Source: an uncultured delta proteobacterium | GTDB taxonomy: Bacteria; Desulfobacterota; Binatia; UBA9968 | Direction: 5' to 3' | DNA: 64,000 nt | Assembly: GCA_963727625.1 (NCBI GenBank) | Contig: CAVSHR010000005.1 | Span: 992,001 to 1,056,000 of the forward strand | Shown: positions 24,740 through 58,089 of the stretch, piece by piece | How positions within the stretch are numbered: position 1 is the first letter of the stretch | How the letters are laid out: each line of letters begins with the position of its first letter | Program-made: the position numbers and the translations under genes | The notes under the pieces: model-generated | Databases searched by the model: none | What the model was told of the DNA's origin: nothing | What the model saw: the letters and a program-made list of their open reading frames with translations, nothing else

Positions 24740-24745
24740 TGGATC

Positions 24746-35791: not shown

Positions 35792-36394
35792 TCAAGCGGG
35801 CTCTTCGGCAGTGGCGCTTCGATCGAGCGGCCGGCGGTCGCGCTCGAGCCGATCCATCAACCATGAAAGCAAGAGTTGGAGGTAGCCGGGTTTGTCCGAC
35901 CTCGGTTCAGTCATACCGGCAACGCAACGCGCGATATGTTCCTCGGCGAAGCGCTCACGCGCGCTCTTGGTGAGATTGGCGGCCTCGGGATTTCCATCCA
36001 TTCGAGCATAGGCCTCTTTCAAGAACAGATATCCGACGAAACCCGCTTCGACCGAAAGGTGGTCGATCGACTCTTCCCGTTGGGGATTAAACGAAAACGC
36101 CTGATAGAAAGCCTGGAGCTCCGCCATCAGGCGGCCCGGATCTTCAAAGCCGCAGTAACTCACTTCGCGCGGCGATAGAGTCCCGCCGGGACCGAAGAGC
36201 CGGTGATAAATTTCTTCACCGACCGGACCGGCTTGCGCCGCACAGGCTAAAAGTTTCTCATCGGTGATTTCACAGCAAAGCGCCGCAATCTTGTCTTTCC
36301 ACTCCGGCGTCGGCCGTTCCAGAAGCAGCGACGCCAACCGCCACGCCGCGGCGCTTGCCAGCTCCTCCGTTTTGATTGCGTAGGGGATGGTCAT
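35792..36394 (-). CDS. TorD/NarJ-family molybdoenzyme chaperone
   Basis: E.SIDHLSVEAGF motif; last gene of the Mo-enzyme operon. Confidence 0.8.
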   Translation of the reverse strand: MTIPYAIKTEELASAAAWRLASLLLERPTPEWKDKIAALCCEITDEKLLACAAQAGPVGEEIYHRLFGPGGTLSPREVSYCGFEDPGRLMAELQAFYQAFSFNPQREESIDHLSVEAGFVGYLFLKEAYARMDGNPEAANLTKSARERFAEEHIARCVAGMTEPRSDKPGYLQLLLSWLMDRLERDRRPLDRSATAEEPA

Positions 36395-37338
36395 TTTGAG
36401 CTCTCCAGCGCCAGCGGAATCCAGGCGGTGCGCATTTTCTTCGATCCCACCTCTTGGTGCGACCCTTCCCAGACCGCGAACGCGACTTGCGTTCGTCCTC
36501 CCGGCCGAGCCCCGTTCGGCAGCGGCCGAATGAGCACGACGTTCCAGCCCTCTTGTCCGTGTTTTCCATTGCCGGCTGAGATGCTCTTATCGGCGGGACG
36601 GAGGGTGCCCGGACCTTCCGCCACGAGGTCTTGAACCGGAACCGTGCGCGGTCCCGCCATCGGGTTCCCCAAAGCGCGGGCCGGCGCATAGCGCCTTGCC
36701 ATTTCTTGCTGTACGGCGGATCCAAGCTTGAGCGGTGCGGCCTCGAACGGGTAATGGTCGACCTTGGCCCGTGGATAGATTGCGTGGATGTCGTCTTGAC
36801 GACCGTCGGCGACGGCCTGAAACATCGCTGACCAGTAGGTGATCTCGACCGGCTTGCCGTTCTCGCCCATTTGCGGGGCGGGGACATCCGGGGTGGTCAG
36901 GGCGGGCAGCTGAACCGCAACGGCATCCCCGAACCGCCCCGGTCCCGGCATGTCGTCCAGCGTTGCATCGTTCCAACTCAGACGAAAGACGATTTGTTTT
37001 CCGTCGCTGGCCGATTGAACCTTGACGAAGGCGGTCGACGCCTGCATCTCTCTGGGCTCGACCATGTCTTGCAGCAGCAGCTTGGCGTGATGCACGGGGA
37101 TCCGCTCCCAAGCGGCGTCGTCCACCGTGGACGGCAGCTTGGTTGCGAATACCGCCTTGACCTCGGACTCGGAAATCGGCGGTCCTTTTTTCCCGCAGCC
37201 GGAAATAACCGCAGAGATCAGCACAAATACAAAAAGAACCAATTTTAGGCCACAGGGAACCCTCAGCTTACGAAAACAATTTTCCTCGCCCGCCGGCGCC
37301 AAAGGGCCGGCGTGAGGGTCATATCGGCGGTGATCCAC
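36391..37338 (-). CDS. EbdC/NxrC-like heme-b gamma subunit, lipoprotein (start uncertain)
   Basis: Lipobox ISGC; FRLSW.D, DAVAVQLP, QMG and VAFAVWEG...K motifs of DMSOR type II gamma subunits. Confidence 0.75.
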   Translation of the reverse strand: MDHRRYDPHAGPLAPAGEENCFRKLRVPCGLKLVLFVFVLISAVISGCGKKGPPISESEVKAVFATKLPSTVDDAAWERIPVHHAKLLLQDMVEPREMQASTAFVKVQSASDGKQIVFRLSWNDATLDDMPGPGRFGDAVAVQLPALTTPDVPAPQMGENGKPVEITYWSAMFQAVADGRQDDIHAIYPRAKVDHYPFEAAPLKLGSAVQQEMARRYAPARALGNPMAGPRTVPVQDLVAEGPGTLRPADKSISAGNGKHGQEGWNVVLIRPLPNGARPGGRTQVAFAVWEGSHQEVGSKKMRTAWIPLALESSK

Positions 37339-37457
37339 GCTCAGCTCTGATTCTCGCCTGCGAAAGGAGCGGGAGGCAGCTAGTGAAGACCCTCGGGATG
37401 AGAGCAAGGATAATGTTCGGATTGCGTCTATCTTTTGCGCGATCACAGGGATTCTCC

Positions 37458-38585
37458 TCAAGAAACATTGGTGCACGCCACGCCGCGCGCGGCGTCAAAC
37501 GCCGGGCGAATTGTCGTGGGTTCCCGCAGCGGCACGCGCACGATCTCCTTGCCGTTTTCGTCAAAACCGATCACCTCCTCGTCGATCCGCTTCCACTTGG
37601 GGACGATTTTCTCCGTCGACCCGAAAAGCGTGAGAAGACCCGCAAGATCTTTGTCGCGGTGCGCGTTACGGTAGGTTTCCAGCGCCCCGTCAACGTTCGG
37701 CCCGAACATTTGCACGAGAAAATCCCGCGGCACGTTCAGCGGCGGGATGTAATAGACGTTGGGTTCGAGGCCGAACTGCGGGAAGAGCGGCAGCGCGACC
37801 TTTTTCACGTGCACCAGAAAATCGATCGGATTGTCCGGCCGCGCCTGCTCAGGCTTGGAGACCCAGCCGGCGAAGCGGATTTTGCCGATGCAGTTGGCGA
37901 AGCATTGCGGCTGGAGGCCCAGTTCGATCTTGGGAAAACAGCCGATGCACTTCTCCGATGTTCCCGTCATCGTGTTGTAAAAAGTTTTTTTGTACGGGCA
38001 GGCTTTGACGCATTCCTGATAACCGCGGCAGCGTCCCTGATCGATCAGCACGATGCCGTCCTCCTGGCGCTTATAGATCGAGCCGCGCGGGCAGGACGCC
38101 AGGCAAGCGGGATAGGTACAATGGTTGCAGATGCGCGCGAGATAAAAAAACCAGGCGTTGTGCACGCCGGTAAAGTACGCGCCTTTCTCCACGCCGTTGG
38201 CGCAATCGTCTTCCCCGACGTTCGGGTTGGCATAGTCCATCTCCTCGGGCCGCCAGCCAAAAACCCGCTCGCCGGCTTGCGCCGCTTCGAAAATCGTACG
38301 TCCCGCGTAGCGCTCGCCTTCCCAATTCTGCCCGCCGAGTTTTTCCAGGAGATTCACGTCCCAGGCGAGCGGATAGAATCCGTAAGGTTTGGTCTCGACG
38401 TTGTTCCACAGCATGTACTCCTGCCCTTTGCCGCTTGTCCACGTAGTTTTGCACGCGAGCGTACAAGTCTGACAAGCGATGCACTTGTTGGTGTCAAAGA
38501 CCGCGGCGAACTGTCGTTTGGGCCGGCTCTCAGGATACCAGTAGGACATCTCACGGCCGAGCTGCCAGTTGTATACGCGTGCCAT
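37458..38585 (-). CDS. nxrB: NXR/NAR-like beta (Fe-S) subunit, periplasmic Nitrospira/anammox type
   Basis: [57 protein letters not shown]. Confidence 0.85.
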
Positions 38586-41500
38586 TATTTTTCTCCACCT
38601 TTCTTGTTTTTGGCGGCGACGAACTTACCCTTGAGATAATTCTTCATGGCGGCGCGCTCGTATTTCGGTCTGAGCCCGAGCGCCGCCGGCCGCCAGATGC
38701 CTTTGCCGTTCATACCGCCCGGCTCGGCTTTGGTGATTTTTACGATCGCTTCGCGCGGCGCGCCCGTGGGGCAATGAACATCGGGGAGGAAACCCTTGTG
38801 GACCGATTGACCGAACAGGTCCTTGCGCACCAGCGAATCGGTCATCCAGGTGGGCTTGAGCCACCCGCGCGTGGCGGCCTGGTGCGAGCCGGATCGGAAC
38901 ATCGCCTGATAGGGGCTGCGCGGATTTTTCGCCAGACCGTCTTCGCGCGTCTCTTGTCCCTCCACGGATCCCGGCGTGGCGCCGTACATATTGAACCACA
39001 TGCGGGTCACCCCGCGCGGCGTGCCCGGGTAATAGCGGGCGCGGCACAGCAGGCGCGCGAACTTGTAATCCTTTTCATTTTTCTGCCAGCCCCGGAACGG
39101 TCGGTCCGAAGGATCGGAATCGATCCAGACATAATCGCCATCGTCAATCCCGAGAGATTTGGCGTCCTCCGGATGAATATCGACGTAGCCTTCGGCGGCG
39201 AACGGCTGGCGCTTGTCATGACGATAAATATCGCCGAACGGCCCGAAGAGCATCGCCACCATGTCCGTGTCGACCGGCATCGTGTGCGCGCCATGGCGGT
39301 ATTTCGGCGTGTGAAAAACAAATTTGTAACCGTCCTTCGCCAGCGGGTGCGAGGTCTTTCTCGCTTCGTTCCAGCTCATGACGACATTGCGCCCCTGGCG
39401 AACATCGTTGGAAAGGTCGTCTTTTTTGACGCCGTAGCTTTCGGGCCCCCTGGCTTTGATGAACGGATGGCTTGGAGCGATGATCACGTTGGGTTCGTAA
39501 AAAGTCGAATCGATGGGCTCGCGATGAACCGGCAAGTTTTCTCCCGCATCGATGAACTCGTCCTCTTCCCGATAAAATTCCAAACGTCCGGTCTTGGTAT
39601 ACCAGGGTCGGGAGTCATAGACCTGCTCGTAGCCGACGGCCTTGGGATTGGTCCGGTTCATCATGAGGGCGGGAATTCCCTTCTTCGCCTTTTCCTCCAA
39701 GTCGGCGATGTTGTATCCCTTGGTGAGTGAAGAGTGGTCGAGAATGCGCTGCAGGTAAACCTCCACGTTTCCCGCGTCGACGAACTTCCACATATCGGCG
39801 AAGCGCTGATCGCCGGTCCGTTGCGCCAGCTTTTTTCCGACCAGCGCCAGGTATTCGATGTCGCCGCGGGTATCGAACGGCCGCGGCTGAGGCGTGCGGG
39901 GAAAGATCGTCAGAAACGGGTTGGTCACCGACGCGCTCATGTCGGGATATTTGAGCTCGGACCAACTATCAACCGCAAAAACCACGTCCGCCCACTCACA
40001 GGAAGTCGACCACCACCATTCCTGGACCGCGATCATTTCGATTTTCGGCAACATGTTGACGACCGTGTTGTAATGCCACTTGACGTTTCCCAATATCGAG
40101 TTGGCGTTGGCGAACCAGAGCGATTTGGTCGGCGCCGGCATGTGCGTTTTGCCGGTGATCATCGTTTTGCCCATCTTGAGCGGGTGGTCTTCGTGATTGT
40201 AATAATGCGCCGACTCGGCCTTCCAGAACTGCTTCGGCCGCGCCGGCTTGGCGCCGTCGAGCTCGAGATCGAACGGGTTCTCATTGATGTATTGCGGCAC
40301 GCCGTTGAACATCGCCACCCGGTAATTTCCCGCGTAGGAGCCGATGTTGCCGGCGAGCTTGCCGATGTTGCCGGTGAGCGCGGCCAGGAGAAACTGGGTT
40401 CGGTCCTTATTGTCGTTGTTGAAGAACTGATTCGGCCCCATGCCGATGGCGAACAAAGTCGTTCCCGGCGTTTTTGCAATTTCCGCTGCCAGGCTTTCCA
40501 CCGCTTCCGCTGGCGCCCAGGTAATCTCCTCTGTGGTCTTCGGATCGAAGTGCTTCACGTATTCGAGGATCACATCGAAAATCGGCCGGCAGAAGATTTT
40601 CTTGCCGTCTTTGAGCGTCACTTCAACCGAACCTTCCAGGAGCGGGTCGGCCACCGTCGAGTATTTGCCCACGTGATCGCGGGCGAGCGCTTCAGGCTTG
40701 GAGGTCTGGCGATTCCACCAGACGTAGTCTCCCCAGGCTTTTCTCAATTCCTCGGGAAGCAGCATGTCGGTCTGAGCGCCCGGCGGCGGTACTTTGTCCC
40801 CTTTCACCACGGTCTTCGTCTGGTTTTTCAGGATATGGAGCTGGCCGCCGAAGACCTCCTCGGCGCGGAGCAATTTCAAATTATCGGCCCGTACCAGCAG
40901 CGGCAGATCGGTGAAGCGCCGCACGTAGTCGCCATCGTAAAGCTTTTTCTCCATGATGACGTTGCATAGGCCGAGCGCCAGCGCCGGGGTCGTGCCGGGA
41001 CGAACGACGATGACCTCGTCGCCTTTCGGGCTCGTCGACGAGTATTCGCATGCGATCACCACGACCTTGGTGCCTTTCAGGCGCGCTTCGGTCAGCCAAT
41101 GGGTGTCGGGCATTTTCGTCGTCACCCAATTCATGCCCCAGACAATCACCATACGCGCCAACTCCACGGCGTGAAGATCGAACTCGACGGTCTGCTGCCC
41201 GGTCACCATGGGATGACCGGGGGGCAGATCGGTATGCCAGGAGTAGTTATCGAAGCCGCGTCCGCCGATCGCCTCTTCGGGTTTAACGCCGCGCAGCTTG
41301 TGGTCGAGGAGAGCCATGGAATTCGCCAGCCGGTACAGGCCAAAAACTCGGGTCATCCCCAAGAGCGGCATGCCGCCGCGGAATTTGAGCACCTGGGTGC
41401 CCGCTCCCTTGGTGGCCTGAACGACCTGCTCGTCGTAACCCTGGTGCAGCAGGAGCTTTTGGCCTTTCTCGCCGCTGTACGTCGTGGCGACGTTGATGAG

Positions 41501-42040
41501 CGCCGCCGCGACGATATCCGCCGCCTGCTCATGGGTGACCCGCAGCCAGTCATCCCGCGCTCGATCGAAATATTCCTTCGGCGGGCGTCCGTCTTTGTCC
41601 CGCGGGAACCCTTTGTCCACCCAGGCCTTGAAACCCTTGCGCACCATCGGATAGCGCACGCGCCGGTCTCCGTAAAATCGCCGCGTGAGCGCCAGTCCCT
41701 TCTGACACACCCGCGGGTCCCAGCGATGACTGACCTTCGTGCCGTAGAGATCGCTGGCTTCCCCATATTTCATGGTCGGACCGATGCGCGTGATCACGCC
41801 GTCGCGCACATAAGCGTTCAAGATGCAGTTATGGGTATCGTTGGGGGCGCACAGAAAGGTAAAGCTCGAGTCTGATTTCCAAAGATCGCGATAGGTTTTT
41901 TCCCAGTCGCGGTTTGGATAGGCCGCCAGTGGATTTTCAATCGCCTGAAGCCCCCAGGCGTCGCGCACCGAGAGCGCAAACGCGGAAAAGCCAGCGGCGC
42001 CGACCCATTCTAAGAATTCACGGCGGTTGATATTTTTCAT
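38585..42040 (-). CDS. nxrA: DMSO reductase type II alpha subunit, NxrA/periplasmic NarG-like (1151 aa)
   Basis: Tat signal NRREFL; FS0 motif CAPNDTHNC...C (C-x3-D-x3-C); Mo-ligand segment [12 protein letters not shown]; start at 42040 overlaps the upstream stop. Catalytic direction not determined. Confidence 0.85.
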
Positions 42041-43710
42041 TTTCTTGTCCCCCAGGTCCGTAGGAATGCAACGATGGATGAAATTTCCGAGTCCGTCAGG
42101 GCTCCTTGCACCGTTGAGCTCGTACCGAAACCGCCCATGGAGGTTCCGGCGCGGCCGCTTTGAATCGTCTTCAAAAGATAGGTATCCGTGGCGAGATCGA
42201 GAAAGACGCGATTGTTGAGCGCCGGCCCTTCCTTGCCCTCGCCGCGCTCGCCATGGCATCGGGCGCAGGCCGAGGCAAACAAACGCTGCCCTTCGGCCGC
42301 ATTGCCTTCAATCCAGCGGCGCGGTTTAGCATCCCCTTCAAAGGCGATCCCGCCGAGATCGCGAATGTAAGCGACGAGCCGAACGATCTCTGCATCGCGC
42401 AGCCCGCCTTCCAACTCTCCCCAAGCCGGCATGCGTCGCCCCGGCCGCCCCCGCTTGATCTGCTCGCGCAAGAAATCGTCGGAAACCAGACGCAGAAAAT
42501 CCCGGTTTCCGATAGCGGGAAACGGGGCTAAACCGGGGTAGCGCATGCCTTCGCCTCCGGCGCCGTGACAGGCCGCGCAGAAAGTTCCATAGAGCGTCGC
42601 CCCGTCCGTAGCGAACTCGCGCAAACCGAAGCGCTCGGCGCGAATGCGGTCTTTAGGCCAAAGCGCTTCGTAAAAGTTCCGCCGCCGCAAAGACATCATA
42701 TACAAGGTCAGCCGATCGATCTGTTGGTCGCCCAATCCGAGCTCGGGCATTGCCGAACCGCGCACCACCGAAGCGGGAGCGCGGAAATGATCCTTGAGCC
42801 AGTTGGCGAGCGTGCGTGCTCCTTTGACTGAGCTGAAATCGAGCTGTCCGGGATCCTTGTTACCCTCGGCGGTCAAATCCGGCCCGTCATCCCCGCCTAC
42901 GCCGCGAACTTTATGGCAGCCGCGACAGCCGAGAGTATGAAACAGCGCTTTGGCTTCCACTAAACCCGGGGCGCCGACACGAGAGCGAAGATATTCATCC
43001 AGCTCGGCTCGTTCCGCCGCTGAAAGCTCGCCAAAGGCCGAAGTCCATGGTCCGAAAGCTGCCTTTTTCTTTTCGCCGAGGTGAACATCGTACCAATCAG
43101 CCTTAAATCCGGTCGCGCCTACCCGCGAGAGATCCGGTCCCTCCCCACCTCCGGCACCGCCAGGACGCAGCGTTCCGCCCCTTCCGTCCAGCTTGTGGCA
43201 CGCGAGGCAATCGGCTTGTTCGAAAACTCGTTTGCCGTTTTCGAGACGAGCGAGGTTGGGAACGCTCAGGTGGGTGTGGCATCCGCCACACCCGGCATAG
43301 AGATATTTTTTTTCCAGCATCGGCTCCGGCCAATACGGCACCGCGCCATGCGCCGCCGCCGTTTCGGTCGCCCTTCCCTGGCCGCTGTGACAAACGGTGC
43401 AGCCGTAAGCGGCCGGATCGTGGACCACATCCGGATGGCGCCCGAAGAGTCGATCGCCTTCGATGCCGTTTTCACCCGGCGCCATCCCGACGTGACAACT
43501 CACGCACCGGTCCGTCGCTTCCAGCTCACGGCTGACAATCTGCCGCAGTTGAATCGTGAAGGCGTCGGCCTGGGACGCCGGCAGCTCCGCTTGTATGCGC
43601 CGCTGGATCACGCGCCAGTCGCGGAAGAAATTCTCGCTGACGGCGGCCCAAACCAGCACCGCCAGCGCCGCCAGGCTTGACCACAGGAGCAGATGTTTGT
43701 TCGCCTTCAT
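42037..43710 (-). CDS. Membrane-anchored heptaheme cytochrome c
   Basis: CVSCH, CTVCH, CGGCH, CLACH, CRGCH, CAACH, CARCH; N-terminal TM. Confidence 0.9.
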
Positions 43711-43767
43711 CTTCCAGCGTTGACCTGAATCTGCAATTTGAGATTCGTCATCTGAGATCCCGCAGAG

Positions 43768-45336
43768 CTAGTGTCCCGGCCACTGGGAGTGAGACCAATA
43801 AAACTCCCAGTTCGGTCCGCGGAAATAGGTTCCGATCACTGTCAGCACCACAAAGCCGCACATAAAGCAGGTGAACAAAGCCAATGCGCCGGCGCGTGTC
43901 GAGTTGTACTTTTTCAGGCAGCGAAGCGAATAGCAGGCGTAGATCAAGGTCAATAGCGTGCCGGGGTTAATGAACGTGATTATGAGCTGCGGCGCGCCGA
44001 GCCACCATTGGCGAATCCAACCGAATCGAATCACCAAGGCTTCGATAACCACCACCACCGTCAGCCCGAAGATGGCCGCGCCGGCCACCAAGCGCCCGCC
44101 TCCGGCACCGCCGAACCAGGTTCCGGTCCCGTCTGTTTCACGATCCAGATAAGGGATCAATCCGAGGCCGATGAGCACGATCATCGGAATGCCGACGCCG
44201 CCCATGAAAGCTGAATGCGAGACTAATTCCTGCAGCCCGAGAAAATACCAGGGCGCTTTGGCGGGATTTTCGGGTATTGCCGGATTGGCCACTTCTTTCA
44301 GCGGCGCGTCGAGAAAAATCGCCAGAATCACCGAGAGCGCGACCGTCAACATGAAGACGGCGGCTTCGCCATATAGCAGGTGCGGCATGGAAGGCAGGGT
44401 GTGCTCCGGCCCGTCTCCGACCGCGGCTGTTCGTCCCTTGACGATGGCTGCCAAGCTGTAGGTCTTCTGCGGCGCTTCCGTAAAGACCGGATAGAGCTCC
44501 GCCGGCCCGGCCCCGAGCCGCCGGTCCGCGTCGGCAGGTTTTGCCAGGCCGCCATCCTTGCGGATGCGCCAGAAGTGCACGGCCATGAGCGTGACCAAAA
44601 GCAGGGGCAGAATCATCACATGAAAGAGATAAAAACGTATGAGCGCCTCTTCACCGACCTCTTCGGAGCCGAGAAGGATTAGTTTTTGCAGCCCGCCGAT
44701 GTCGAACCACGACGTGATCCCGAGTGCGTCCGTGACTTCGCGCGGCGACTGCGCGATGTTCGCGCCGATGGTAATCGCCCAGTAGGCCAACTGGTCCCAG
44801 GGAAGCAGGTAGCCGGTAAAGGAAAGACCGAGCGTCAGCACTAAAAGCCCCATGCCGATCAGCCAGTTGAACTCGCGCGGCGCTCGATAAGACGCGGTGT
44901 AAAACACCCGCGCCATGTGCAGCAGAACCACCACCACCATCATGTTTCCCGACCAGCGGTGGATGTTGCGAATGAATCGTCCGGTCGGCACGACAAAGTG
45001 AATGTCTTTAATCGAAAAATAAGCGACGTCCGGGTAAGGCTTGTAGTAGAACATGAGCAGCACGCCGGTGATCACGAGAACCAAAAAGCAAGAAAGCGCC
45101 GCAATCCCGAGCCCCCAGGTCGTTGACCAGCGGAGACTCCAGCGGTGCGTGCGCACCGGATGGAGATGGAGAAAGACGTTGCCAAACACAAAAGTCGAGC
45201 GGGTCCGGTCCGACGCGGGCTTCCCGCTCCGAAACATCGTCTCGGTCAAACGGCGCGGCGCCAGTTTTAGATTTTCAGTGAATCGGCCTAGTGCCGACCC
45301 GCTCGGGGCCTCCGCCCTTGAGGTTAGCGGATTCAT
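43768..45336 (-). CDS. petB: Cytochrome b of a Rieske/cytb complex (b6 + subunit IV-like regions in one chain)
   Basis: IRNIHRW...LHM, FTGYLLPWDQ, FHV...VHF heme ligands, NPAKAPWYF Qo region; start MNPL at 45336. Confidence 0.9.
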   Translation of the reverse strand: MNPLTSRAEAPSGSALGRFTENLKLAPRRLTETMFRSGKPASDRTRSTFVFGNVFLHLHPVRTHRWSLRWSTTWGLGIAALSCFLVLVITGVLLMFYYKPYPDVAYFSIKDIHFVVPTGRFIRNIHRWSGNMMVVVVLLHMARVFYTASYRAPREFNWLIGMGLLVLTLGLSFTGYLLPWDQLAYWAITIGANIAQSPREVTDALGITSWFDIGGLQKLILLGSEEVGEEALIRFYLFHVMILPLLLVTLMAVHFWRIRKDGGLAKPADADRRLGAGPAELYPVFTEAPQKTYSLAAIVKGRTAAVGDGPEHTLPSMPHLLYGEAAVFMLTVALSVILAIFLDAPLKEVANPAIPENPAKAPWYFLGLQELVSHSAFMGGVGIPMIVLIGLGLIPYLDRETDGTGTWFGGAGGGRLVAGAAIFGLTVVVVIEALVIRFGWIRQWWLGAPQLIITFINPGTLLTLIYACYSLRCLKKYNSTRAGALALFTCFMCGFVVLTVIGTYFRGPNWEFYWSHSQWPGH

Positions 45337-45830
45337 ACCGTCACCGTTGTTCCAGCGGCGACGTTGTTCCCTTCGTCGATCATGAAATGGTCGCCGCTCA
45401 AATGTTTCACCTCGAGCCACGGCAGTCCCTTCGGCGCGGGTCCTTTGATCACCGAGCCATCCTTTGCGAATTTCGAGCCGTGACACGGGCAGTCGAAACC
45501 CGTTTCGGTCGGCTTGACGATGCAGCCCAGATGCGTGCAGACCCGGGAAATCGCGTGCACCGCGTTGCCCTCTTTTATAATCGCTACCGACCGGCCGGCG
45601 GGGAGGTAGGGTTGGCCCGCGAGCAAGGATGGCGGGAGCGTGACTTTGAATTTCTTCGACGGAGAAGGAAGGACCGCAGCTTTCGGCAGCCGCATCGCGC
45701 CGAGAAAGCCGAAGAGCAGCGCGGCTGACGCAGACCACCACGCCGCGAGACCGAGGAAATCCCTGCGTGGCATCGCCTCGGGATCCAATCTGGACCGGAA
45801 CGTCGATGGGGTCTTGGCTTCGGTTGTCAT
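45333..45830 (-). CDS. Rieske [2Fe-2S] subunit (PetC/QcrA type)
   Basis: Tat RRDFL, TM anchor, CTHLGC, CPCHGSKF, GPAP. Confidence 0.92.
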   Translation of the reverse strand: MTTEAKTPSTFRSRLDPEAMPRRDFLGLAAWWSASAALLFGFLGAMRLPKAAVLPSPSKKFKVTLPPSLLAGQPYLPAGRSVAIIKEGNAVHAISRVCTHLGCIVKPTETGFDCPCHGSKFAKDGSVIKGPAPKGLPWLEVKHLSGDHFMIDEGNNVAAGTTVTV

Positions 45831-47794
45831 GCAGCCCTCCACTCGGTTTGAAAGCTCACCCGCTCCATGGCGATGGCATCGGCGGGACAACGCTCCACGC
45901 AAAGCGCGCAGCGAATACAGCGGTCTTCGTCTTTCAGAATCGCCGAGTTATTTTCCAGATCGGCGTCAGCGCCGAGTTGAGATTCAAAAAGCTCGCTAAC
46001 CTCCGCGGCCGGGTTCAGTGCGGAGAGAGGGATGATCTTCAAGCACAGCGTCGGACAAACATCGGCGCACCCGCCGCAGAGAATACAGCGATTGCCGTCG
46101 AAGACCGGGGTCACGCCGCAATCGAGACAGCGCGACGCCTCGCGCATCGCTTCGTCCTCGGCAAGGCGTTTTTCTACCGTCAAAGTCGGGTCCGCCAAGC
46201 GCTCCGCAGGCGATGCCATCGGCAATTCTACGCGGCGGATCCGCTCGTAACCGAGCTCGCGCCGATAACGGTCGAGCCGCACGAAACTCATCAACGTCTC
46301 GGGTTGAAGGGCGCGGCCGGTCACGTATTGGTACACCGAGCGAGCCGCTTTCTTTCCCGAGGCCACCGCATCGATCAAGAGCCTGGTCCCGTGCGCCAGA
46401 TCGCCAACCACGAAAACGCCTTCGGCCGTAGTCATGAGCGTTGTCGGATCCACTTTTGGCCAGCCCGGCCGGAATTGCTCAATATCGGCGCCGCCCTCGT
46501 CCAAAAACGAAAGGTCCGGCGCTTGGCCGGCGGCGATCAGAATCGAGTCGCAGTCAAGCACCTGTCTGTTTTCCTCTTCGAATGACGGCGCAAACCGGCG
46601 TTGATCATCGTAAACCCGGACGCAGCGTTTGATTTCCAGGCCGATGACGGTCCCTTGGGGGTCACGCCGAATCGCCACCGGCCCCCAGCCGGAGAGCCGC
46701 TCGATGCCTTCCTCTTCCCCTTCGCGAATTTCCACGGTGTCCGCCGGCATCTCCTCCAAAGTTTCAAGAGAGACCAGACGGACGCGCCGCGTGCCGGTGA
46801 GGCGGGCGGCCATACGCGCGGTGTCGTATGCCGCTTGACGGACAACCGTTCGCGCGACGTCATACGCGACATTGCCACCGCCGATCACGACCACATCGGC
46901 CCCAAGCGGCAGGTTCTCCGCCAGCGCAGCGGCGCGCAGGAAGTCGACGCCGCCGTAAACGCCCGGCCCCGGCTCACCCGGAAGACCCAAGGCTCGTGGA
47001 CGCTTTGCACCCACGGCCATGACTACCGCGGCGAATTCATCGCGTAACGACTGGAATGAAAGGTCACGGCCAATTTTGGTCTTGCAGCGGATTTCGACGC
47101 CGAGGGCTTCAATGACCGCGACTTCACGCCGGATCAGCTCGCGTGGGAGACGGTATTCCGGAACCCCCACCGCCAGCATTCCGGCGGCCAACGGTTCCAT
47201 CTCGAACACGACGGGTGTGAGTCCCAGCAGGGCGAGGTCGTGGGCCGCGCTCAGCCCCGCCGGACCCGACCCGATGATCGCGACCCGCTGCCCCTCGGCG
47301 GGGACTAAAGCTCCTTGCGTAGCGGCACGTAGCAAGAACGCCATTTCCTCGGCGTCCGCCGCAACTTTCGGGACATAGCTCCTGAGGCTTTGCAAAATTT
47401 CTTCCGGAGCCCGCGCTTCGGCTCCGATGGATTCGCAAACAAAGCGCTTCAAGGCGCGAATCGAGATGGGCCGGTCGGTCGCCACGAATGAGCCATCGGC
47501 ATCGGTCCGAGGAATTTTCCCGCGCCGACACCCGGTCTCACAGGGCGCGCCGCAGATTCGGCCGCAGATCGATGCGAAGGGATTCGGGCCTCTGGCGATA
47601 AGGTAGGCCTTGTCAAATTCCCCGTCGGCGATCGCGCGCACATAGCCCCGCGCATCCGTGTGCACTGGACAAGCGACTTGGCAGGCGATCAGATCCTTAT
47701 GGTGATCGCCTCTAGGAAGCTCGGCCCGAATCGGCGTTCGCATCATTGCACCATCGGTTTTCGTCGTCGCCGGCGTCGGCGTCGGCTGAATCAC
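45827..47794 (-). CDS. NfnB/GltD/DsrL-like FAD/NAD(P)-binding Fe-S oxidoreductase with C-terminal ferredoxin domain
   Basis: CQVACP..CGRICGAPCE..C; GSGPAG; GGGNVA; RCLDC; CILCGGCADVCP; CIRCALCVERCP. Confidence 0.88.
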   Translation of the reverse strand: MIQPTPTPATTKTDGAMMRTPIRAELPRGDHHKDLIACQVACPVHTDARGYVRAIADGEFDKAYLIARGPNPFASICGRICGAPCETGCRRGKIPRTDADGSFVATDRPISIRALKRFVCESIGAEARAPEEILQSLRSYVPKVAADAEEMAFLLRAATQGALVPAEGQRVAIIGSGPAGLSAAHDLALLGLTPVVFEMEPLAAGMLAVGVPEYRLPRELIRREVAVIEALGVEIRCKTKIGRDLSFQSLRDEFAAVVMAVGAKRPRALGLPGEPGPGVYGGVDFLRAAALAENLPLGADVVVIGGGNVAYDVARTVVRQAAYDTARMAARLTGTRRVRLVSLETLEEMPADTVEIREGEEEGIERLSGWGPVAIRRDPQGTVIGLEIKRCVRVYDDQRRFAPSFEEENRQVLDCDSILIAAGQAPDLSFLDEGGADIEQFRPGWPKVDPTTLMTTAEGVFVVGDLAHGTRLLIDAVASGKKAARSVYQYVTGRALQPETLMSFVRLDRYRRELGYERIRRVELPMASPAERLADPTLTVEKRLAEDEAMREASRCLDCGVTPVFDGNRCILCGGCADVCPTLCLKIIPLSALNPAAEVSELFESQLGADADLENNSAILKDEDRCIRCALCVERCPADAIAMERVSFQTEWRAA

Positions 47795-47810
47795 TGAAAA
47801 ACCCGCCCTG

Positions 47811-48224
47811 TCATCTGCCCGAACTGCTCGCCAAGTCGGCCAGCGTTGTTTGTTCCATCAGTTCGCCGATGACCCGTTGTCTCACTTTCTTCCACTTAAA
47901 ATGGAGCGCGCAGGGATTTGCTTCCGCGCACCGCTCGCTCCAAAAAATGCACCGCTCGAAAAGATCAGACCCTTCTATTGCGAGAAAAACTTCTTTCAGC
48001 TTGAGGTCCTTGGGTCTTCGCGCCAGGGCATAGCCACGAACGGCCCCTCGGGAGGAAACCAGGATTCCGCCCCGGGTGAGTTTTTGAAAGATTTTCGCGA
48101 GGAAACTGACCGGTATACCGCGCGACTTCGCGACGTCGCGAAGTAGCATCACCGTCCCAAAAGGCTTGGTGGCCAGCGCGATGAGTCCCTCGATCGCGTA
48201 TTCGCTCTCTCGTCCGAGTCTCAT
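47811..48224 (-). CDS. Rrf2 family regulator with a 3Cys+His putative Fe-S site
   Basis: SEYAI, FLAKIFQKL, S.RGA.RGY.LA, C-x6-C-x5-C-x2-H. Confidence 0.9.
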   Translation of the reverse strand: MRLGRESEYAIEGLIALATKPFGTVMLLRDVAKSRGIPVSFLAKIFQKLTRGGILVSSRGAVRGYALARRPKDLKLKEVFLAIEGSDLFERCIFWSERCAEANPCALHFKWKKVRQRVIGELMEQTTLADLASSSGR

Positions 48225-48232
48225 GTGCAAGA

Positions 48233-48259
48233 GTCAAAAGACAAATTTGATCTTTTGAC
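48233..48259. promoter_or_regulatory. Putative Rrf2 operator (9-9-9 inverted repeat)
   Basis: GTCAAAAGA-caaatttga-TCTTTTGAC immediately upstream of the rrf2 start. Confidence 0.7.
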
Positions 48260-48489
48260 ACCAACCCGACGCAAACCGCATACCATTGCATGCAATTAGC
48301 GGGAGACGAATTTTCAACGTAAAACCGATGGGGGGCTTCCGGAAATCAAGAAAACGGGCGAGTGATTTTCTCAAAAAGAAAAAACTTGGAGTTAACGCTC
48401 ATTCATGTGGATCGAATAGACCAAGCCCGGCGGGTTCCCGCTTCTAACACAATTGGCGCGGTGGACCGAGAAGAGCTGATTAAACCGGC

Positions 48490-56349: not shown

Positions 56350-58089
56350 ATGGGACCAAGTATATTACCGCGCCACTTTATTCTCTCCGTTGTTCTGCTT
56401 CTCGCGTTAGTTTCGGTTTATATTTTTTTTGAGGCGCGGCGTTCCCAGGACGAGTTGCTGCGCCAGACCGAAGCCAAGGGATTCGCACTGGCCGACGCCA
56501 TGGAAGCTAACATCCGCGACTCGGTGGTGGCGAATTCTTTGCTGGAAGAACTGATCAGCCAACGGCTTCTCGACAACGCGCGCCTGATCGACGAGCTGCT
56601 GCAATTTCCGCGGACCGACGAGAAAATGCTCCAGCAGATTGCCGCCGCTAATCGGCTTAGTAAAATCGAGCTGCTTGATCTCAAGGGGCGGCCCTTGGAC
56701 ACCTTGCCCGCGCCCAACCGCGGGCCCATGCAAGCGATGATGGGCCGGATGCGGGCGCTTCCTTCGGAAGATTCGCGCCAACAGCACAGGGCGATGATGA
56801 CTTTCATGTGGGGCCGGCGCTGGCGACTGCCGCAGGAGCAAACCCCGACGCCGCCCAAAATCACCGAAAAAAAATTTTGGGAGGGCAGTCTGTTCGGTGT
56901 CGCCATCGACGCCCGCAGTTTTCCCGGCATTATCGCCATCCACGCCAACGCCGATTACATCGTTAATTTTCGCAAGCAGATCGACGTTCAAAAACAAGTT
57001 GAAGAGCTCGGCCGGCAATCTGACATCGAGCATGTCGCCTTTGTCGACAACGATTTCAAAGTGCTGGCCCACACGAACTCGAAGCTCATTAATCAACGCC
57101 ACGACGACCCGCTGCTACTCGAGATGAAAACACACCGAGGACTCGGCCGTGGAATCATCGAGCAACCTGATGGCAGCCGACACTTTGACGTCGTCAAACC
57201 CGTAAGCATCAACGGCACTCCGCTGGGATTTCTCGAAATCGGCCTTTCATTGGAGCCCATGGAGGCGGCTTGGCGGCGCAGCCTGCGATCGATGGCCGTC
57301 TTTGGCCTCGGCATCCTCGCCGTGGGCATCCTGGGCATGGGCGCCATTTTCTATAATCAGCGGGGCCACCTGCAAAAAGTCCGCTCGCTCGAGGAGGAAA
57401 TCAACCGCAAAGAGCGGCTCTCTGAGCTCGGCAACATGGCGGCCACTGTGGCCCATGAAATTCGCAATCCGCTCAATTCCGTGTCCATAGGCCTGCAACG
57501 GCTCAAGGCGGAGTTTACGCCGACCGGAGACGCCGAGGAGTATGCGCATTTTTTGAATCTGATGCAGGACGAAGTGCGCCGGCTCAATACCATCGTCGAG
57601 CAATTTCTCTCTCTGGCCCGGCCGTTGACTTTGAACTACGAAGAGATCGTGGTCGACGAATTTCTTTGCGAGATCACGGCGCTGTTGGCCGGAGAAGCCA
57701 AGGCATCGAACGTCGATATCGAGCTGAAAGTGGCGCCGGACCTGCCGCCGTTCCGGGCGGACCGAAATTATCTCAAACAACTCTTGCTGAATCTCATTTT
57801 AAATGGCGTGCAAGCCACGCCGGGGGGCGGCAAGCTGTCGGTTGAAGCCGTCGTAGAGCAAGAATCTCTGCGGCTGAACCTCATCGATCGTGGCGTTGGC
57901 ATCGAGCCCGACAACTTGACCAAGATTTTCCAGCCCTACTTCACCACCAAAGCCAACGGTTCTGGGTTGGGGCTGGCCATCGCCCGTCGAATCGTCGAGG
58001 CCCATGGTGGTAAGATCTCCGTGGAGAGCCGGCCGGGACAGGGCTCCTGTTTTCGGGTGTCGCTGCCGATCGCCGGTGTTAAAACTTAA
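56350..58089 (+). CDS. Sensor histidine kinase (ZraS/HydH-like)
   Basis: Two TMs; VAHEIRNPLNS; NLILNG; D.G.GI; YFTTK.GSGLGL. Confidence 0.92.
   Translation: MGPSILPRHFILSVVLLLALVSVYIFFEARRSQDELLRQTEAKGFALADAMEANIRDSVVANSLLEELISQRLLDNARLIDELLQFPRTDEKMLQQIAAANRLSKIELLDLKGRPLDTLPAPNRGPMQAMMGRMRALPSEDSRQQHRAMMTFMWGRRWRLPQEQTPTPPKITEKKFWEGSLFGVAIDARSFPGIIAIHANADYIVNFRKQIDVQKQVEELGRQSDIEHVAFVDNDFKVLAHTNSKLINQRHDDPLLLEMKTHRGLGRGIIEQPDGSRHFDVVKPVSINGTPLGFLEIGLSLEPMEAAWRRSLRSMAVFGLGILAVGILGMGAIFYNQRGHLQKVRSLEEEINRKERLSELGNMAATVAHEIRNPLNSVSIGLQRLKAEFTPTGDAEEYAHFLNLMQDEVRRLNTIVEQFLSLARPLTLNYEEIVVDEFLCEITALLAGEAKASNVDIELKVAPDLPPFRADRNYLKQLLLNLILNGVQATPGGGKLSVEAVVEQESLRLNLIDRGVGIEPDNLTKIFQPYFTTKANGSGLGLAIARRIVEAHGGKISVESRPGQGSCFRVSLPIAGVKT

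What the first reader, a model, noticed from the sequence alone, without database searches (positions are those of the whole stretch)
35792..48259. One operon joining an NXR-type Mo enzyme, a Rieske/cytochrome b complex, a heptaheme cytochrome c and an NAD(P)-linked flavo-Fe-S subunit
Seen: nine co-oriented genes in the order rrf2 - flavo-Fe-S oxidoreductase - Rieske - cytb - 7-heme cyt c - alpha - beta - gamma - chaperone, with ATGA/TAATG overlaps at 45827-30, 45333-6, 42037-40, 38585 and 36391-4. Known: anammox Rieske/cytb complexes carry an NAD(P)H-oxidoreductase and multiheme cytochromes, and haloarchaeal periplasmic Nar is encoded with Rieske/cytb genes. Inference: this operon combines both designs into a possible supercomplex. 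It could be (a) Q-cycle-coupled periplasmic nitrate respiration, possibly with bifurcation to or from NAD(P)(H), or (b) nitrite oxidation with built-in reverse electron flow to NAD(P)+ in an organism that otherwise looks heterotrophic. I know of no characterised example with all modules in one operon.
Basis: partly seen in the sequence, partly recalled or inferred. Interest (0 to 1): 0.88.

Follow-up and report, generated by a model that had tools for sequence, protein, structure and literature searches.

The report
Nitrate reductase wired to NAD-linked bc complex
One tightly packed operon, found almost unchanged in many soil and sediment bacteria, joins a periplasmic nitrate/nitrite molybdenum enzyme to its own quinol-oxidising Rieske/cytochrome b complex that carries an NAD-binding flavoprotein, and nobody has yet tested how it works.

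Summary
Nine co-oriented genes lie on the minus strand in the stated order, and all five stated overlaps are real.

The alpha subunit is NXR-type. It scores 854 bits against Kuenenia NxrA (PDB 7B04) and keeps that enzyme's FS0, Asn and Asp residues.

The eight structural genes form a rigid cassette. All four upstream genes are in place in 50 of 52 related loci with enough flank, and these loci carry labels from at least seven phyla.

The flavoprotein-Rieske-cytochrome b-multihaem half is homologous, in the same gene order, to clusters that end in an HAO-like octahaem instead of NXR. Those clusters match the published anammox layout.

I read the operon as quinol-dependent periplasmic nitrate respiration. 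The cytoplasmic branch probably uses NAD(H) rather than NADP(H). Its direction is unknown, and so is the direction of the molybdenum enzyme.

New for this genome:
- a sigma-54-like promoter and a palindrome upstream of rrf2
- a second NXR, far closer to Kuenenia's (1599 bits), elsewhere in the genome

This scan has already reported the same cassette on other DNA at least eight times. I found no functional study.

The parts
48271..48285 (-). Sigma-54-type promoter-like motif (TGGTATGCGGTTTGC), 47-61 nt upstream of the rrf2 ATG
   Evidence: 5 matches to TGGYAYN5TTGC in the window against 0.46 expected; 0 of 100 shuffles reached 5. The GG/TTG core is conserved upstream of rrf2 in the four closest loci (alignment A3). 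The consensus itself is recalled, not taken from a tool.
48233..48259 (-). Perfect 9-bp inverted repeat with a 9-nt spacer, between the promoter-like motif and the rrf2 start. Candidate Rrf2 operator.
   Evidence: Read directly. The right arm and part of the left arm are conserved in L001, L004, L009 and L016. Function is inferred.
47811..48224 (-). Rrf2-family regulator with a Cys92-x6-Cys99-x5-Cys105-x2-His108 motif (numbered from ATG 48224), so probably Fe-S-binding
   Evidence: Pfam Rrf2 89.9 bits. TIGR00738 92.8 bits, over its cut-off; IscR, NsrR and the other equivalog models all fall below their cut-offs. The Cys motif was read. An Rrf2 gene sits at this position at 63-71% identity in 4 loci and at about 30% in 8 more.
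45827..47794 (-). Cytoplasmic flavo-Fe-S subunit: N-terminal Fer4_20 domain, FAD and NAD(P) Rossmann domains, C-terminal ferredoxin-like domain
   Evidence: Seven N-terminal and eleven C-terminal Cys are conserved at 98-100% in 48 sequences. The YRR motif of five solved homologues is replaced by S342-L343-E344 in 46 of 48. No hydrophobic anchor was found apart from the Cys-rich stretch.
45333..45830 (-). Rieske [2Fe-2S] subunit with an RR motif and one hydrophobic anchor. The CTHLGC and CPCHGS boxes are present.
   Evidence: Cluster ligands are invariant in 53 of 53 sequences. Ser119 is present in 53 of 53 and Phe121 in 52 of 53.
43768..45336 (-). Fused cytochrome b6-like (4 helices) plus subunit-IV-like (5 helices) protein
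   Evidence: The four haem-b His residues are invariant. The position of b6 Cys35 (haem cn) is Gly75 in 52 of 53. His57, His59 and His64 in the N-terminal extension are 96-98% conserved. C490xxC493 and the C-terminal His522 are conserved.
42037..43710 (-). Membrane-anchored heptahaem cytochrome c: three c7-like haems followed by four class-I domains
   Evidence: Seven CXXCH motifs, 98-100% conserved in 59 sequences. One N-terminal hydrophobic helix. Pfam matches.
38585..42040 (-). NXR-type molybdopterin alpha subunit, Tat-exported
   Evidence: 854.4 bits to 7B04_B over residues 4-1141. C64, N67, D68, C72, C112 and D271 are 100% conserved in 59 sequences. They align with Kuenenia C67, N70, D71, C75, C115 and D275 (PMC8387239 passages). 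The RR motif is at residues 7-8.
37458..38585 (-). Fe-S beta subunit (NxrB/NarH-like)
   Evidence: Fer4_11 103 bits. TIGR03478 276.9 bits, below its 480.7 cut-off.
36391..37242 (-). Gamma subunit: an EB_dh haem-b protein that is probably lipid-anchored (lipobox Cys at 37197)
   Evidence: EB_dh 82 bits. 69 bits to 7B04_C. The lipobox Cys is 92% conserved. Met111 (100%) and Lys255 (98%), in numbering from the lipobox Gly, match Kuenenia NXR-C Met155 and Lys305 to within one residue. The start codon is uncertain: TTG 37242 or CTG 37266.
35792..36394 (-). NarJ/TorD-type assembly chaperone
   Evidence: Pfam Nitrate_red_del 32.5 bits, over its cut-off. TIGR03482 40.5 bits, below its cut-off.

Best explanation
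The operon encodes one respiratory chain that takes electrons from membrane quinol to nitrate outside the cytoplasmic membrane.

Proposed path:
1. Quinol is oxidised at the outer site of a b6-type Rieske/cytochrome b complex.
2. One electron passes through the Rieske cluster to the membrane-anchored heptahaem cytochrome c.
3. It continues to the lipid-anchored haem-b gamma subunit, through the Fe-S beta subunit, and on to the molybdenum site of the Tat-exported NXR-type alpha subunit.
4. There nitrate is reduced to nitrite.
5. The second electron crosses the membrane through the two b haems. It meets a cytoplasmic flavo-Fe-S subunit docked on cytochrome b, which links this low-potential branch to NAD(H).

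In this lineage the operon appears to be read from a sigma-54-type promoter upstream of an Fe-S-type Rrf2 regulator gene.

Shown here: the genes, their families, the cofactor-binding residues, the conserved cassette, and homology to NXR and to the anammox-type Rieske/cytochrome b layout.

Inferred: nitrate as substrate, the reductive direction, physical assembly into one complex, and the direction of the NAD branch.
For: - Gene families and translational coupling are established.
- Alpha keeps every NXR FS0 ligand, the substrate Asn and the Mo-ligand Asp.
- Gamma keeps the Met/Lys haem ligands.
- The cassette is conserved in 50 of 52 loci upstream and 54 of 56 downstream. Record titles place these loci in Binatia, Acidobacteriota, Myxococcota, Eisenbacteria, Planctomycetota, Acidimicrobiia, Thermodesulfobacteriota and others.
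- The quinol-oxidising half recurs with the same gene order but ends in an HAO-like octahaem enzyme in three small Planctomycetota genomes. The module therefore serves as a feeder for periplasmic N-oxide enzymes.
- T. terrifontis is described in its genome paper as reducing nitrate and then nitrite by Nrf. It has Rieske, cytochrome b and cytochrome c genes (THTE_1512-1510) directly upstream of its only reported NarGHI-TorD (THTE_1509-1506) (PMC5673643).
- Haloarchaeal nitrate reductase with the same narB/narC layout is described as Q-cycle coupled (PMC2483277). It is reported as antimycin-sensitive (as cited in PMC4683180).
- RuBisCO was not found in the window's own 98%-complete genome, nor in 42 of 50 cassette genomes.
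- A strong NrfA is present in 17 of 50 cassette genomes. In three of them it lies on the same contig as the cassette.
- Modelling of cytochrome b with flavoprotein residues 495-655 gave weak support. The median score was 0.58 and the best control 0.00. The mark was reached by 116 of 157 solved complexes and 2 of 215 mismatched pairs. At 0.60 or under it was reached by only 18 of those 157 and by both passing mismatches. The runs agree in at least 87% of contacts, and the partner pLDDT is at least 79. My own alignments were used, so these counts hold only roughly.
Against: - No activity, expression or complex data exist for this cassette. No RNA run was available.
- Kuenenia NXR works in both directions in vitro (PMC8387239 abstract). 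Sequence therefore cannot fix the direction.
- The own genome and its closest relatives show no NrfA, NirK or NirS above cut-off. Nitrite would accumulate or be passed to other organisms.
- The own genome has three haem-copper oxidase genes, so an aerobic nitrite-oxidising role is not excluded.
- Alpha, beta, gamma and chaperone all score below NCBIfam's curated cut-offs for the type II DMSO reductase subfamily models.
- The modelling result is explicitly weak.
- A paper on Zixibacteria RBG-1 reported that a related putative NXR lacks three of five residues conserved in NAR/NXR (PMC3903129 passage). I did not see its supplementary figure. I tested only the residues named for Kuenenia.
Confidence: 0.55

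Rival explanations
1. The NAD branch runs inwards. NADH is oxidised by the flavoprotein and its electrons reduce quinone at, or near, the inner site of cytochrome b. The complex then works as a self-contained NADH:nitrate oxidoreductase with an ordinary Q cycle.
For: This direction is downhill and needs no unusual haem potentials (inference). The S-L-E motif in place of YRR points to NAD(H), the usual catabolic donor. The carriers look heterotrophic.
Against: It would duplicate ordinary NADH dehydrogenases and offers no obvious gain. That fits poorly with conservation of the flavoprotein in 50 of 52 loci. The Rieske protein keeps the Ser (53 of 53) that PMC12954380 links to the high potentials of the anammox Rieske proteins. 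That paper argues such potentials fit reduction of NAD(P)+, not its oxidation.
Confidence: 0.2
2. The enzyme runs as a nitrite oxidoreductase. The attached Rieske/cytochrome b-flavoprotein module carries a share of the nitrite electrons backwards to quinone or NAD+ at the expense of membrane potential.
For: Alpha belongs to the periplasmic NXR lineage. Kuenenia NXR oxidises nitrite (PMC8387239). The own genome has three haem-copper oxidase genes. PMC10732223 hypothesised nitrite oxidation for this broad clade in Planctomycetota (passages).
Against: - RuBisCO was not found in the own genome or in 42 of 50 cassette genomes. Other CO2-fixation pathways were not tested.
- The only cultured carrier I could document respires nitrate (PMC5673643).
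- The own genome and its six closest relatives also hold a separate NXR much closer to Kuenenia's (1599 against 854 bits). That enzyme carries its own dihaem cytochrome c and is the more natural candidate for nitrite oxidation.
- Pushing electrons from nitrite (+430 mV) to NAD+ (-320 mV) through one complex is energetically very costly (inference).
Confidence: 0.1
3. The molybdoenzyme acts on a different oxyanion, such as chlorate, perchlorate or selenate, or on another substrate. The nitrate assignment would then be wrong.
For: All four NXR-module proteins fall below the curated NCBIfam cut-offs. The RBG-1 paper raised this possibility for a relative (PMC3903129). The cytochrome b's best NCBIfam matches are the ExtP/ExtQ models of a selenite/tellurite reduction operon, both below cut-off.
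Against: The full-length match to NxrA is about five times stronger than to perchlorate reductase or ethylbenzene dehydrogenase. The substrate-facing Asn, which is Ile in ethylbenzene dehydrogenase according to PMC8387239, is invariant here.
Confidence: 0.07

Closest known systems
Kuenenia stuttgartiensis Rieske/cytochrome b complexes Kuste4569-4574 and Kustd1480-1485 (PMC12954380; introduction, section 3.3 and discussion part 1 read)
   Same: - b6-like cytochrome b
- subunit-IV-like part with five helices
- multihaem cytochrome c in place of cytochrome f/c1
- cytoplasmic FAD/NAD(P) Fe-S subunit with about four clusters
- Rieske protein with the H-bonding Ser
- conserved His residues in the N-terminal stretch of cytochrome b, where that paper's AlphaFold3 models place an extra haem b

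Three unnamed Planctomycetota clusters with this published layout share 35-38% (flavoprotein), 33-37% (Rieske) and 41-42% (cytochrome b) identity with the window proteins, in the same gene order.
   Different: - The terminal enzyme is an NXR-type alpha-beta-gamma set, not an HAO-like octahaem.
- Cytochrome b and subunit IV are fused.
- The Cys that binds haem cn in b6 is Gly (52 of 53).
- The cytochrome has seven haems.
- The nucleotide motif is S-L-E rather than YRR.
- The hosts are non-anammox and mostly look heterotrophic.
Kuenenia stuttgartiensis nitrite oxidoreductase NXR-ABC (PDB 7B04; PMC8387239, abstract and passages)
   Same: - full-length homology of alpha (854 bits) and gamma (69 bits)
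- 3Cys/1Asp FS0 cluster
- Asn and Asp at the molybdenum site
- Met/Lys haem b in gamma
- Tat export
   Different: - It is a clearly separate clade. The genome's other NXR scores 1599 bits to the same chain.
- Gamma is a lipoprotein here.
- No tubule subunit gene is present.
- The enzyme is encoded with its own quinol oxidase.
Haloferax mediterranei nar operon: ORF1, narB (Rieske), narC (cytochrome b), ORF4, narG, narH, ORF7, narJ (PMC2483277, passages)
   Same: An outward-facing nitrate reductase is encoded behind Rieske and cytochrome b genes. Q-cycle coupling was proposed for it.
   Different: The passages read list no flavoprotein and no multihaem cytochrome. Its NarG is given as 983 residues, against 1151 for alpha here; I ran no sequence comparison with it. 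It is archaeal.
Thermogutta terrifontis THTE_1506-1512 (PMC5673643, passages and supplementary tables)
   Same: The gene order is the same: Rieske (1512), cytochrome b, cytochrome c (1510), NarG (1509), NarH, NarI, TorD (1506). The organism is cultured and reduces nitrate. A Thermoguttaceae MAG (L073) carries the full cassette at 57-74% identity.
   Different: The paper called the enzyme a cytoplasmic Nar and the neighbours a bc1 complex. It did not mention a flavoprotein. THTE_1513 appears only in the expression table. I could not fetch that genome to check it.
Candidatus Methanoperedens Rieske/cytochrome b complex with pentahaem cytochromes feeding a pseudoperiplasmic Nar (PMC4683180, abstract and passages)
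   Same: The proposed route is the same: menaquinol, then Rieske/cytochrome b, then multihaem c, then an outward-facing nitrate reductase.
   Different: The Rieske/cytochrome b genes are described there as a cluster of their own, not within a nar operon. The passages read mention no flavoprotein. It is archaeal.

Membership tests
Periplasmic NXR / type II DMSO-reductase enzymes (Nitrospira-anammox lineage) | Tat signal on the catalytic subunit | tested here: met
   An RR motif in NRREFL at residues 6-10, followed by a hydrophobic stretch. This was read from the sequence; no signal-peptide predictor was run.
Periplasmic NXR / type II DMSO-reductase enzymes (Nitrospira-anammox lineage) | FS0 cluster with 3 Cys plus 1 Asp, a substrate-facing Asn and an Asp ligand to Mo | tested here: met
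   C64, N67, D68, C72, C112 and D271 are invariant in 59 sequences. They align with Kuenenia C67, N70, D71, C75, C115 and D275.
Periplasmic NXR / type II DMSO-reductase enzymes (Nitrospira-anammox lineage) | EB_dh-type gamma subunit with Met/Lys-ligated haem b | tested here: met
   Pfam EB_dh 82 bits. Met111 is 100% and Lys255 98% conserved. They align with NXR-C Met155 and Lys305, with a one-residue offset at the Lys.
Periplasmic NXR / type II DMSO-reductase enzymes (Nitrospira-anammox lineage) | Scores above NCBIfam's curated cut-offs for the subfamily models (TIGR03479, 03478, 03477, 03482) | tested here: not met
   Scores against cut-offs: 316.9 vs 984.75; 276.9 vs 480.7; 113.5 vs 169.85; 40.5 vs 152.3. 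These models were evidently built on the Ebd/Ser/Clr side of the family.
Periplasmic NXR / type II DMSO-reductase enzymes (Nitrospira-anammox lineage) | Nitrite oxidation and/or nitrate reduction activity | not testable with these tools
   This needs an enzyme assay.
Anammox-type Rieske/cytochrome b complex with NAD(P) oxidoreductase subunit | b6-like cytochrome b with four His ligands, plus a five-helix subunit-IV-like part | tested here: met
   135 bits to spinach b6. H126, H140, H239 and H254 are invariant. A hydropathy scan gives 4 + 5 hydrophobic segments. The two parts are fused in one protein here.
Anammox-type Rieske/cytochrome b complex with NAD(P) oxidoreductase subunit | Covalent haem cN (the Cys35 position of b6) | tested here: not met
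   Gly75 aligns with b6 Cys35. Gly occupies this position in 52 of 53 sequences. A CxxC motif in the last helix is conserved (50 and 45 of 53), but its role is unknown.
Anammox-type Rieske/cytochrome b complex with NAD(P) oxidoreductase subunit | Conserved His ahead of helix A that could bind the proposed extra haem b at the dimer interface | tested here: inconclusive
   His57, His59 and His64 are 96-98% conserved.
Anammox-type Rieske/cytochrome b complex with NAD(P) oxidoreductase subunit | Cytoplasmic FAD/NAD(P) Fe-S subunit encoded in the cluster and homologous to that of the HAO-linked clusters | tested here: met
   Full-length matches at 35-38% identity lie beside Rieske, b6, SUIV, multihaem c and a PF13447 protein in L082-L084. 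The identity of those genomes as anammox bacteria is inferred from the layout and genome size only.
Anammox-type Rieske/cytochrome b complex with NAD(P) oxidoreductase subunit | Physical binding of the flavoprotein to cytochrome b | tested here: inconclusive
   Weak support only: score 0.58, best control 0.00. See the counts in the For line.
NfnB/GltD-type NADPH-dependent flavoproteins | YRR motif after the second Rossmann strand. Its role in binding the 2'-phosphate is recalled, not tested. | tested here: not met
   All five aligned solved homologues have YRR(T/S). The window has S-L-E. S-L-E is present in 46 of 48 cassette flavoproteins. L046 keeps YRR.

The most novel reading that the evidence does not exclude
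The cassette is an obligately bifurcating quinol:nitrate/NAD+ oxidoreductase.

Each quinol sends one electron downhill to nitrate and one uphill, across the membrane, to NAD+. Complex I then re-oxidises the NADH. The large quinol-to-nitrate potential gap, mostly wasted by ordinary nitrate reductases, would be harvested as roughly three times more translocated charge per nitrate (my own arithmetic, not a tool result).

This would explain two things: why heterotrophs in many phyla keep the flavoprotein, and why the cassette has spread laterally. It would also give the untested anammox NAD(P)H hypothesis a test bed in cultivable, non-anammox bacteria. In this Binatia-like lineage the cassette would work beside a second, true NXR, so that one cell could run both halves of a nitrite/nitrate cycle.
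Probability: 0.3. Interest if true: 0.9.

Novelty: new variant of a known kind. Interest (0 to 1): 0.7.

Why it matters
Relatives of the alpha subunit were found in 421 genome stretches in the species-level genome collection. At least 2787 database proteins match at E <= 1e-50. Many of these are annotated simply as nitrate reductase or nitrite oxidoreductase. The reading therefore affects how nitrogen-cycle potential is scored in soil, aquifer and sediment metagenomes.

If the reductive reading is right, these are nitrate respirers with an unrecognised coupling site, not nitrifiers.

If the NAD branch runs as proposed for anammox bacteria, this would be quinol-based electron bifurcation to NAD+ in ordinary bacteria. 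That is a long-standing proposal which cannot be tested genetically in anammox organisms; PMC8387239 notes that mutational studies cannot be performed on anammox proteins.

Tried and rejected
- **RNA evidence.** The look-up of sequencing runs listed no RNA holder and only small DNA shares. I did not lay reads, so co-transcription is untested.
- **Sigma-70 and terminator scan.** 0 promoter-like sites were found against 3.3 expected, and 9 terminator-like sites against 16.9 expected. None was convincing at a gene boundary.
- **Quinone type of the own genome.** MqnA/D (PF02621), ubiquinone hydroxylases (TIGR01988) and MenD (TIGR00173) all fell below their cut-offs. This is inconclusive.
- **NrfA inside locus L034.** I guessed this from contig numbers. 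It was not found; the neighbours there are a porin-like and an FG-GAP protein.
- **Solved structures.** No entry matches a Rieske/cytochrome b complex with a flavoprotein. The best cytochrome b matches are plain b6.
- **Literature.** I ran ten searches, one of which was rejected for a term-syntax error: (syntax error). None returned a paper that describes or tests the full cassette. Subscription journals are not covered by the library.
- **Exact palindrome.** It was not found in the 79 other loci. Only a degenerate version is conserved in four close relatives.
- **Strict sigma-54 pattern.** It is present within 900 nt upstream of the flavoprotein gene in only 7 of 47 loci. This control is lineage-specific, not a cassette feature.
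- **Named reference tree.** I did not build a tree with named Nitrospira, Nitrospina or Nitrotoga NxrA. No tool gave me those sequences, and I did not type them from memory.

Full report
**Observation.**
The minus strand between 35792 and 48230 holds nine consecutive genes. Pfam and NCBIfam identify them as follows:
- an Rrf2 regulator
- a GltD/NfnB-like flavo-Fe-S protein, with Fer4_20, Pyr_redox_2 and a C-terminal di-cluster ferredoxin domain
- a Rieske protein
- a 522-residue cytochrome b
- a 557-residue cytochrome c with seven CXXCH motifs
- a 1151-residue molybdopterin subunit
- a Fer4_11 beta subunit
- an EB_dh gamma subunit
- a NarJ-type chaperone

There are also three gaps:
- 16 nt between rrf2 and the flavoprotein gene
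- 57 nt between cytochrome b and the cytochrome c gene
- about 190-215 nt between beta and the probable gamma start

The flanking genes are unrelated. They encode aromatic-ring oxygenases, UbiD-like and TPP enzymes, amidohydrolases and two NtrC-type two-component systems.

**The molybdoenzyme.**
Alpha matches Kuenenia NxrA (7B04_B) over its whole length at 854 bits. It scores 177 bits against perchlorate reductase, 158 against ethylbenzene dehydrogenase and 133 against E. coli NarG.

The residues that Chicano et al. name for Kuenenia are FS0 ligands C67, D71, C75 and C115, substrate-facing N70 and Mo ligand D275 (PMC8387239 passages). They align with C64, D68, C72, C112, N67 and D271 of the window protein. 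All six are invariant in 59 cassette sequences.

Gamma matches NXR-C. It keeps the Met and Lys that ligate its haem b. A lipobox Cys is conserved in 92% of 59 sequences, so gamma is probably lipid-anchored.

All four proteins score below NCBIfam's curated cut-offs for the type II DMSO-reductase subfamily models.

**The quinol-oxidising half.**
- Cytochrome b is closest to plastid and cyanobacterial b6 (135 bits) and keeps the four haem-b histidines.
- It has 4 + 5 hydrophobic segments. This is the same count that Hauser et al. describe for the two flavoprotein-bearing Kuenenia complexes (PMC12954380, section 3.3).
- Unlike b6, the Cys that holds haem cn is Gly.
- Three His residues just ahead of helix A, a CxxC motif in the last helix and the C-terminal His are conserved. 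They remain unexplained.
- The Rieske protein keeps the H-bonding Ser (53 of 53) but has Phe at the Tyr position (52 of 53). The same paper reports this pattern for Kustd1480, which it measured at +335 mV.
- The flavoprotein has seven conserved N-terminal and eleven conserved C-terminal cysteines.
- Five solved homologues carry YRR after the second Rossmann strand. The window and 46 of 48 cassette proteins carry S-L-E. From recalled knowledge of this family, I take this to favour NAD(H) over NADP(H).

**Conservation.**
A scan of one genome per species found 421 stretches that encode a relative of alpha. The 79 best loci were fetched.
- All four upstream genes are in place in 50 of 52 loci with enough upstream flank. 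The exceptions are L005 and L078.
- The three downstream genes are in place in 54 of 56. The exceptions are L050 and L078.
- All seven neighbours are in place in 40 of 43.

These loci are the closest relatives, so the count describes this clade and not all NXR-like enzymes.

Record titles name Binatia, 'Deltaproteobacteria', Acidobacteriota, Myxococcota, Eisenbacteria, Planctomycetota, Acidimicrobiia, Thermodesulfobacteriota and others. Alpha identity is 71-78% across these labels, apart from two outlying loci (61% and 67%), and 86-95% in the closest Binatia-type MAGs. I infer lateral spread of the whole cassette, and a Binatia-like host for the window.

**Link to the anammox design.**
I searched 401 Planctomycetota genomes with the flavoprotein. 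Eight had cassette-grade matches (63-68% identity). A tier of full-length matches at 36-42% also appeared.

Three of these weaker matches, in genomes of 2.0-2.5 Mb, sit in clusters with this order: flavoprotein, Rieske, b6, subunit IV, multihaem c, and a PF13447 multihaem protein. PF13447 is, from my recollection, the family of hydroxylamine-oxidoreductase-like octahaems. No NXR lies next to these clusters.

That layout is what PMC12954380 describes for Kuste4569-4574. The same feeder module is thus attached either to an HAO-like enzyme or to an NXR-like enzyme.

**Direction.**
Evidence for nitrate reduction:
- A Rieske/cytochrome b complex normally oxidises quinol.
- Haloarchaeal and Methanoperedens systems are read as quinol to Rieske/cytochrome b to outward-facing Nar (PMC2483277; PMC4683180).
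- T. terrifontis has the same gene order, and its genome paper describes nitrate and then nitrite (Nrf) reduction.
- RuBisCO is missing from the own 98%-complete genome and from 42 of 50 cassette genomes.
- A strong NrfA is present in 17 of 50. The tool's own tally is 26 of 50 over the Pfam cut-off, but the extra nine are 24-29-bit multihaem matches that I do not count.
- NirK is over its cut-off in 2 of 50.
- One locus has ScdA- and YwiC-like genes just downstream, and another has molybdenum-cofactor genes.

Evidence against, or neutral:
- The own genome and its closest relatives lack recognisable nitrite reductases.
- They have haem-copper oxidases.
- NXR is reversible in vitro.
- MAG incompleteness weakens every 'not found'.

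**A second NXR.**
Contig C3 of the same genome encodes a Tat-exported alpha at 37.5% identity to the window's alpha. It scores 1599.5 bits to Kuenenia NxrA. With it come a beta, a NarJ-like chaperone and a gamma fused to two class-I cytochrome c domains. No Rieske/cytochrome b genes accompany it.

C3 matches the window's contig in tetranucleotide usage (r = 0.992). The same pair of enzymes occurs in 7 of 50 cassette genomes, including all six closest relatives; in one of these it is only a fragment. The two enzymes are therefore not redundant in this lineage.

**Regulation.**
A motif fitting the sigma-54 consensus lies 47-61 nt upstream of the rrf2 ATG. The consensus is recalled, not taken from a tool. 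The window has five such matches against 0.46 expected.

The motif is followed by a perfect 9-9-9 palindrome. Both are partly conserved in the four closest loci. No further match lies inside the operon.

The Rrf2 protein carries a Cys-x6-Cys-x5-Cys-x2-His motif like that of Fe-S-binding members of the family. This comparison is recalled, not tested.

**Assembly.**
Modelling cytochrome b with the flavoprotein's C-terminal domain gave weak support. The score was 0.58 and the best control 0.00. The calibration counts are given in the For line.

**Earlier work and novelty.**
This scan's notes already describe the same cassette on at least eight other stretches of DNA, with the same reading. I reached the same reading from my own calls.

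In print I found only partial mentions:
- the Thermogutta adjacency
- a Planctomycetota 'novel NXR' clade (PMC10732223)
- a putative periplasmic NXR in Zixibacteria RBG-1 (PMC3903129)
- Binatia 'NarG' peptides in river sediment (bioRxiv 10.1101/2022.03.11.484050)

None describes the flavoprotein-bearing complex fused to NXR. I class the finding as a new variant of known kinds. It is uncharacterised and widespread, and it could serve to test the bifurcation proposal.

Noticed in passing
Own genome contig C3, locus L080:3781-11242 (minus strand): A second periplasmic NXR module. Its Tat-exported alpha scores 1599.5 bits to Kuenenia NxrA, against 854 for the window's alpha. It comes with a beta, a NarJ-like chaperone, a gamma fused to two class-I cytochrome c domains, and MobB/FmdE. 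No Rieske/cytochrome b genes lie nearby. The same pairing with the cassette occurs in 7 of 50 cassette genomes. Binatia-like bacteria may therefore both oxidise nitrite and reduce nitrate.
   Followed up: partly
Own genome contig C12, locus L081:2571-7566 (minus strand): A related Rieske, split cytochrome b6 plus subunit IV, and an 899-residue multihaem cytochrome c cluster. It has no flavoprotein and no molybdoenzyme. Its cytochrome b is 46% identical to the window's. The genome has four cytochrome b genes in all.
   Followed up: partly
window 43768-45336 (cytochrome b), residues 57-64, 490-493 and 522: Conserved features with no assigned role: an HLHxxRxH stretch ahead of helix A, a CxxC motif in the last transmembrane helix near the cytoplasmic side, and an invariant His as the very last residue on the periplasmic side.
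   Followed up: partly
window 37243-37457 (minus strand): An untranslated gap of about 190-215 nt between beta and gamma. It is present in the window and its closest relatives (L001, L004). In most other loci gamma follows beta closely. I did not examine it for an RNA element or a small gene.
   Followed up: no
window 22414, 26202, 27013, 55679 (plus strand): Four further sigma-54-type promoter-like motifs lie near an SPW-repeat gene, a response-regulator gene and other small genes. The window also holds two NtrC-type sensor/activator pairs (23051-26134 and 56350-59478). Either pair might activate the operon's promoter.
   Followed up: no
L063:18061-21424 and L073:12326-17187: In one Clostridia-labelled MAG the cassette is followed by ScdA/YtfE-like, YwiC-like and NosD-like genes. 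In a Thermoguttaceae MAG it is followed by a full set of molybdenum-cofactor biosynthesis genes, with an NrfA-like gene (matched by the genome search) just beyond them on the same contig.
   Followed up: partly
L046 and L085 (Planctomycetota): A second-tier version of the cassette: flavoprotein 45-50%, cytochrome b 53-57% and alpha 65-72% identical. In L046 the flavoprotein keeps the YRR motif, so this subgroup may use NADP(H).
   Followed up: no
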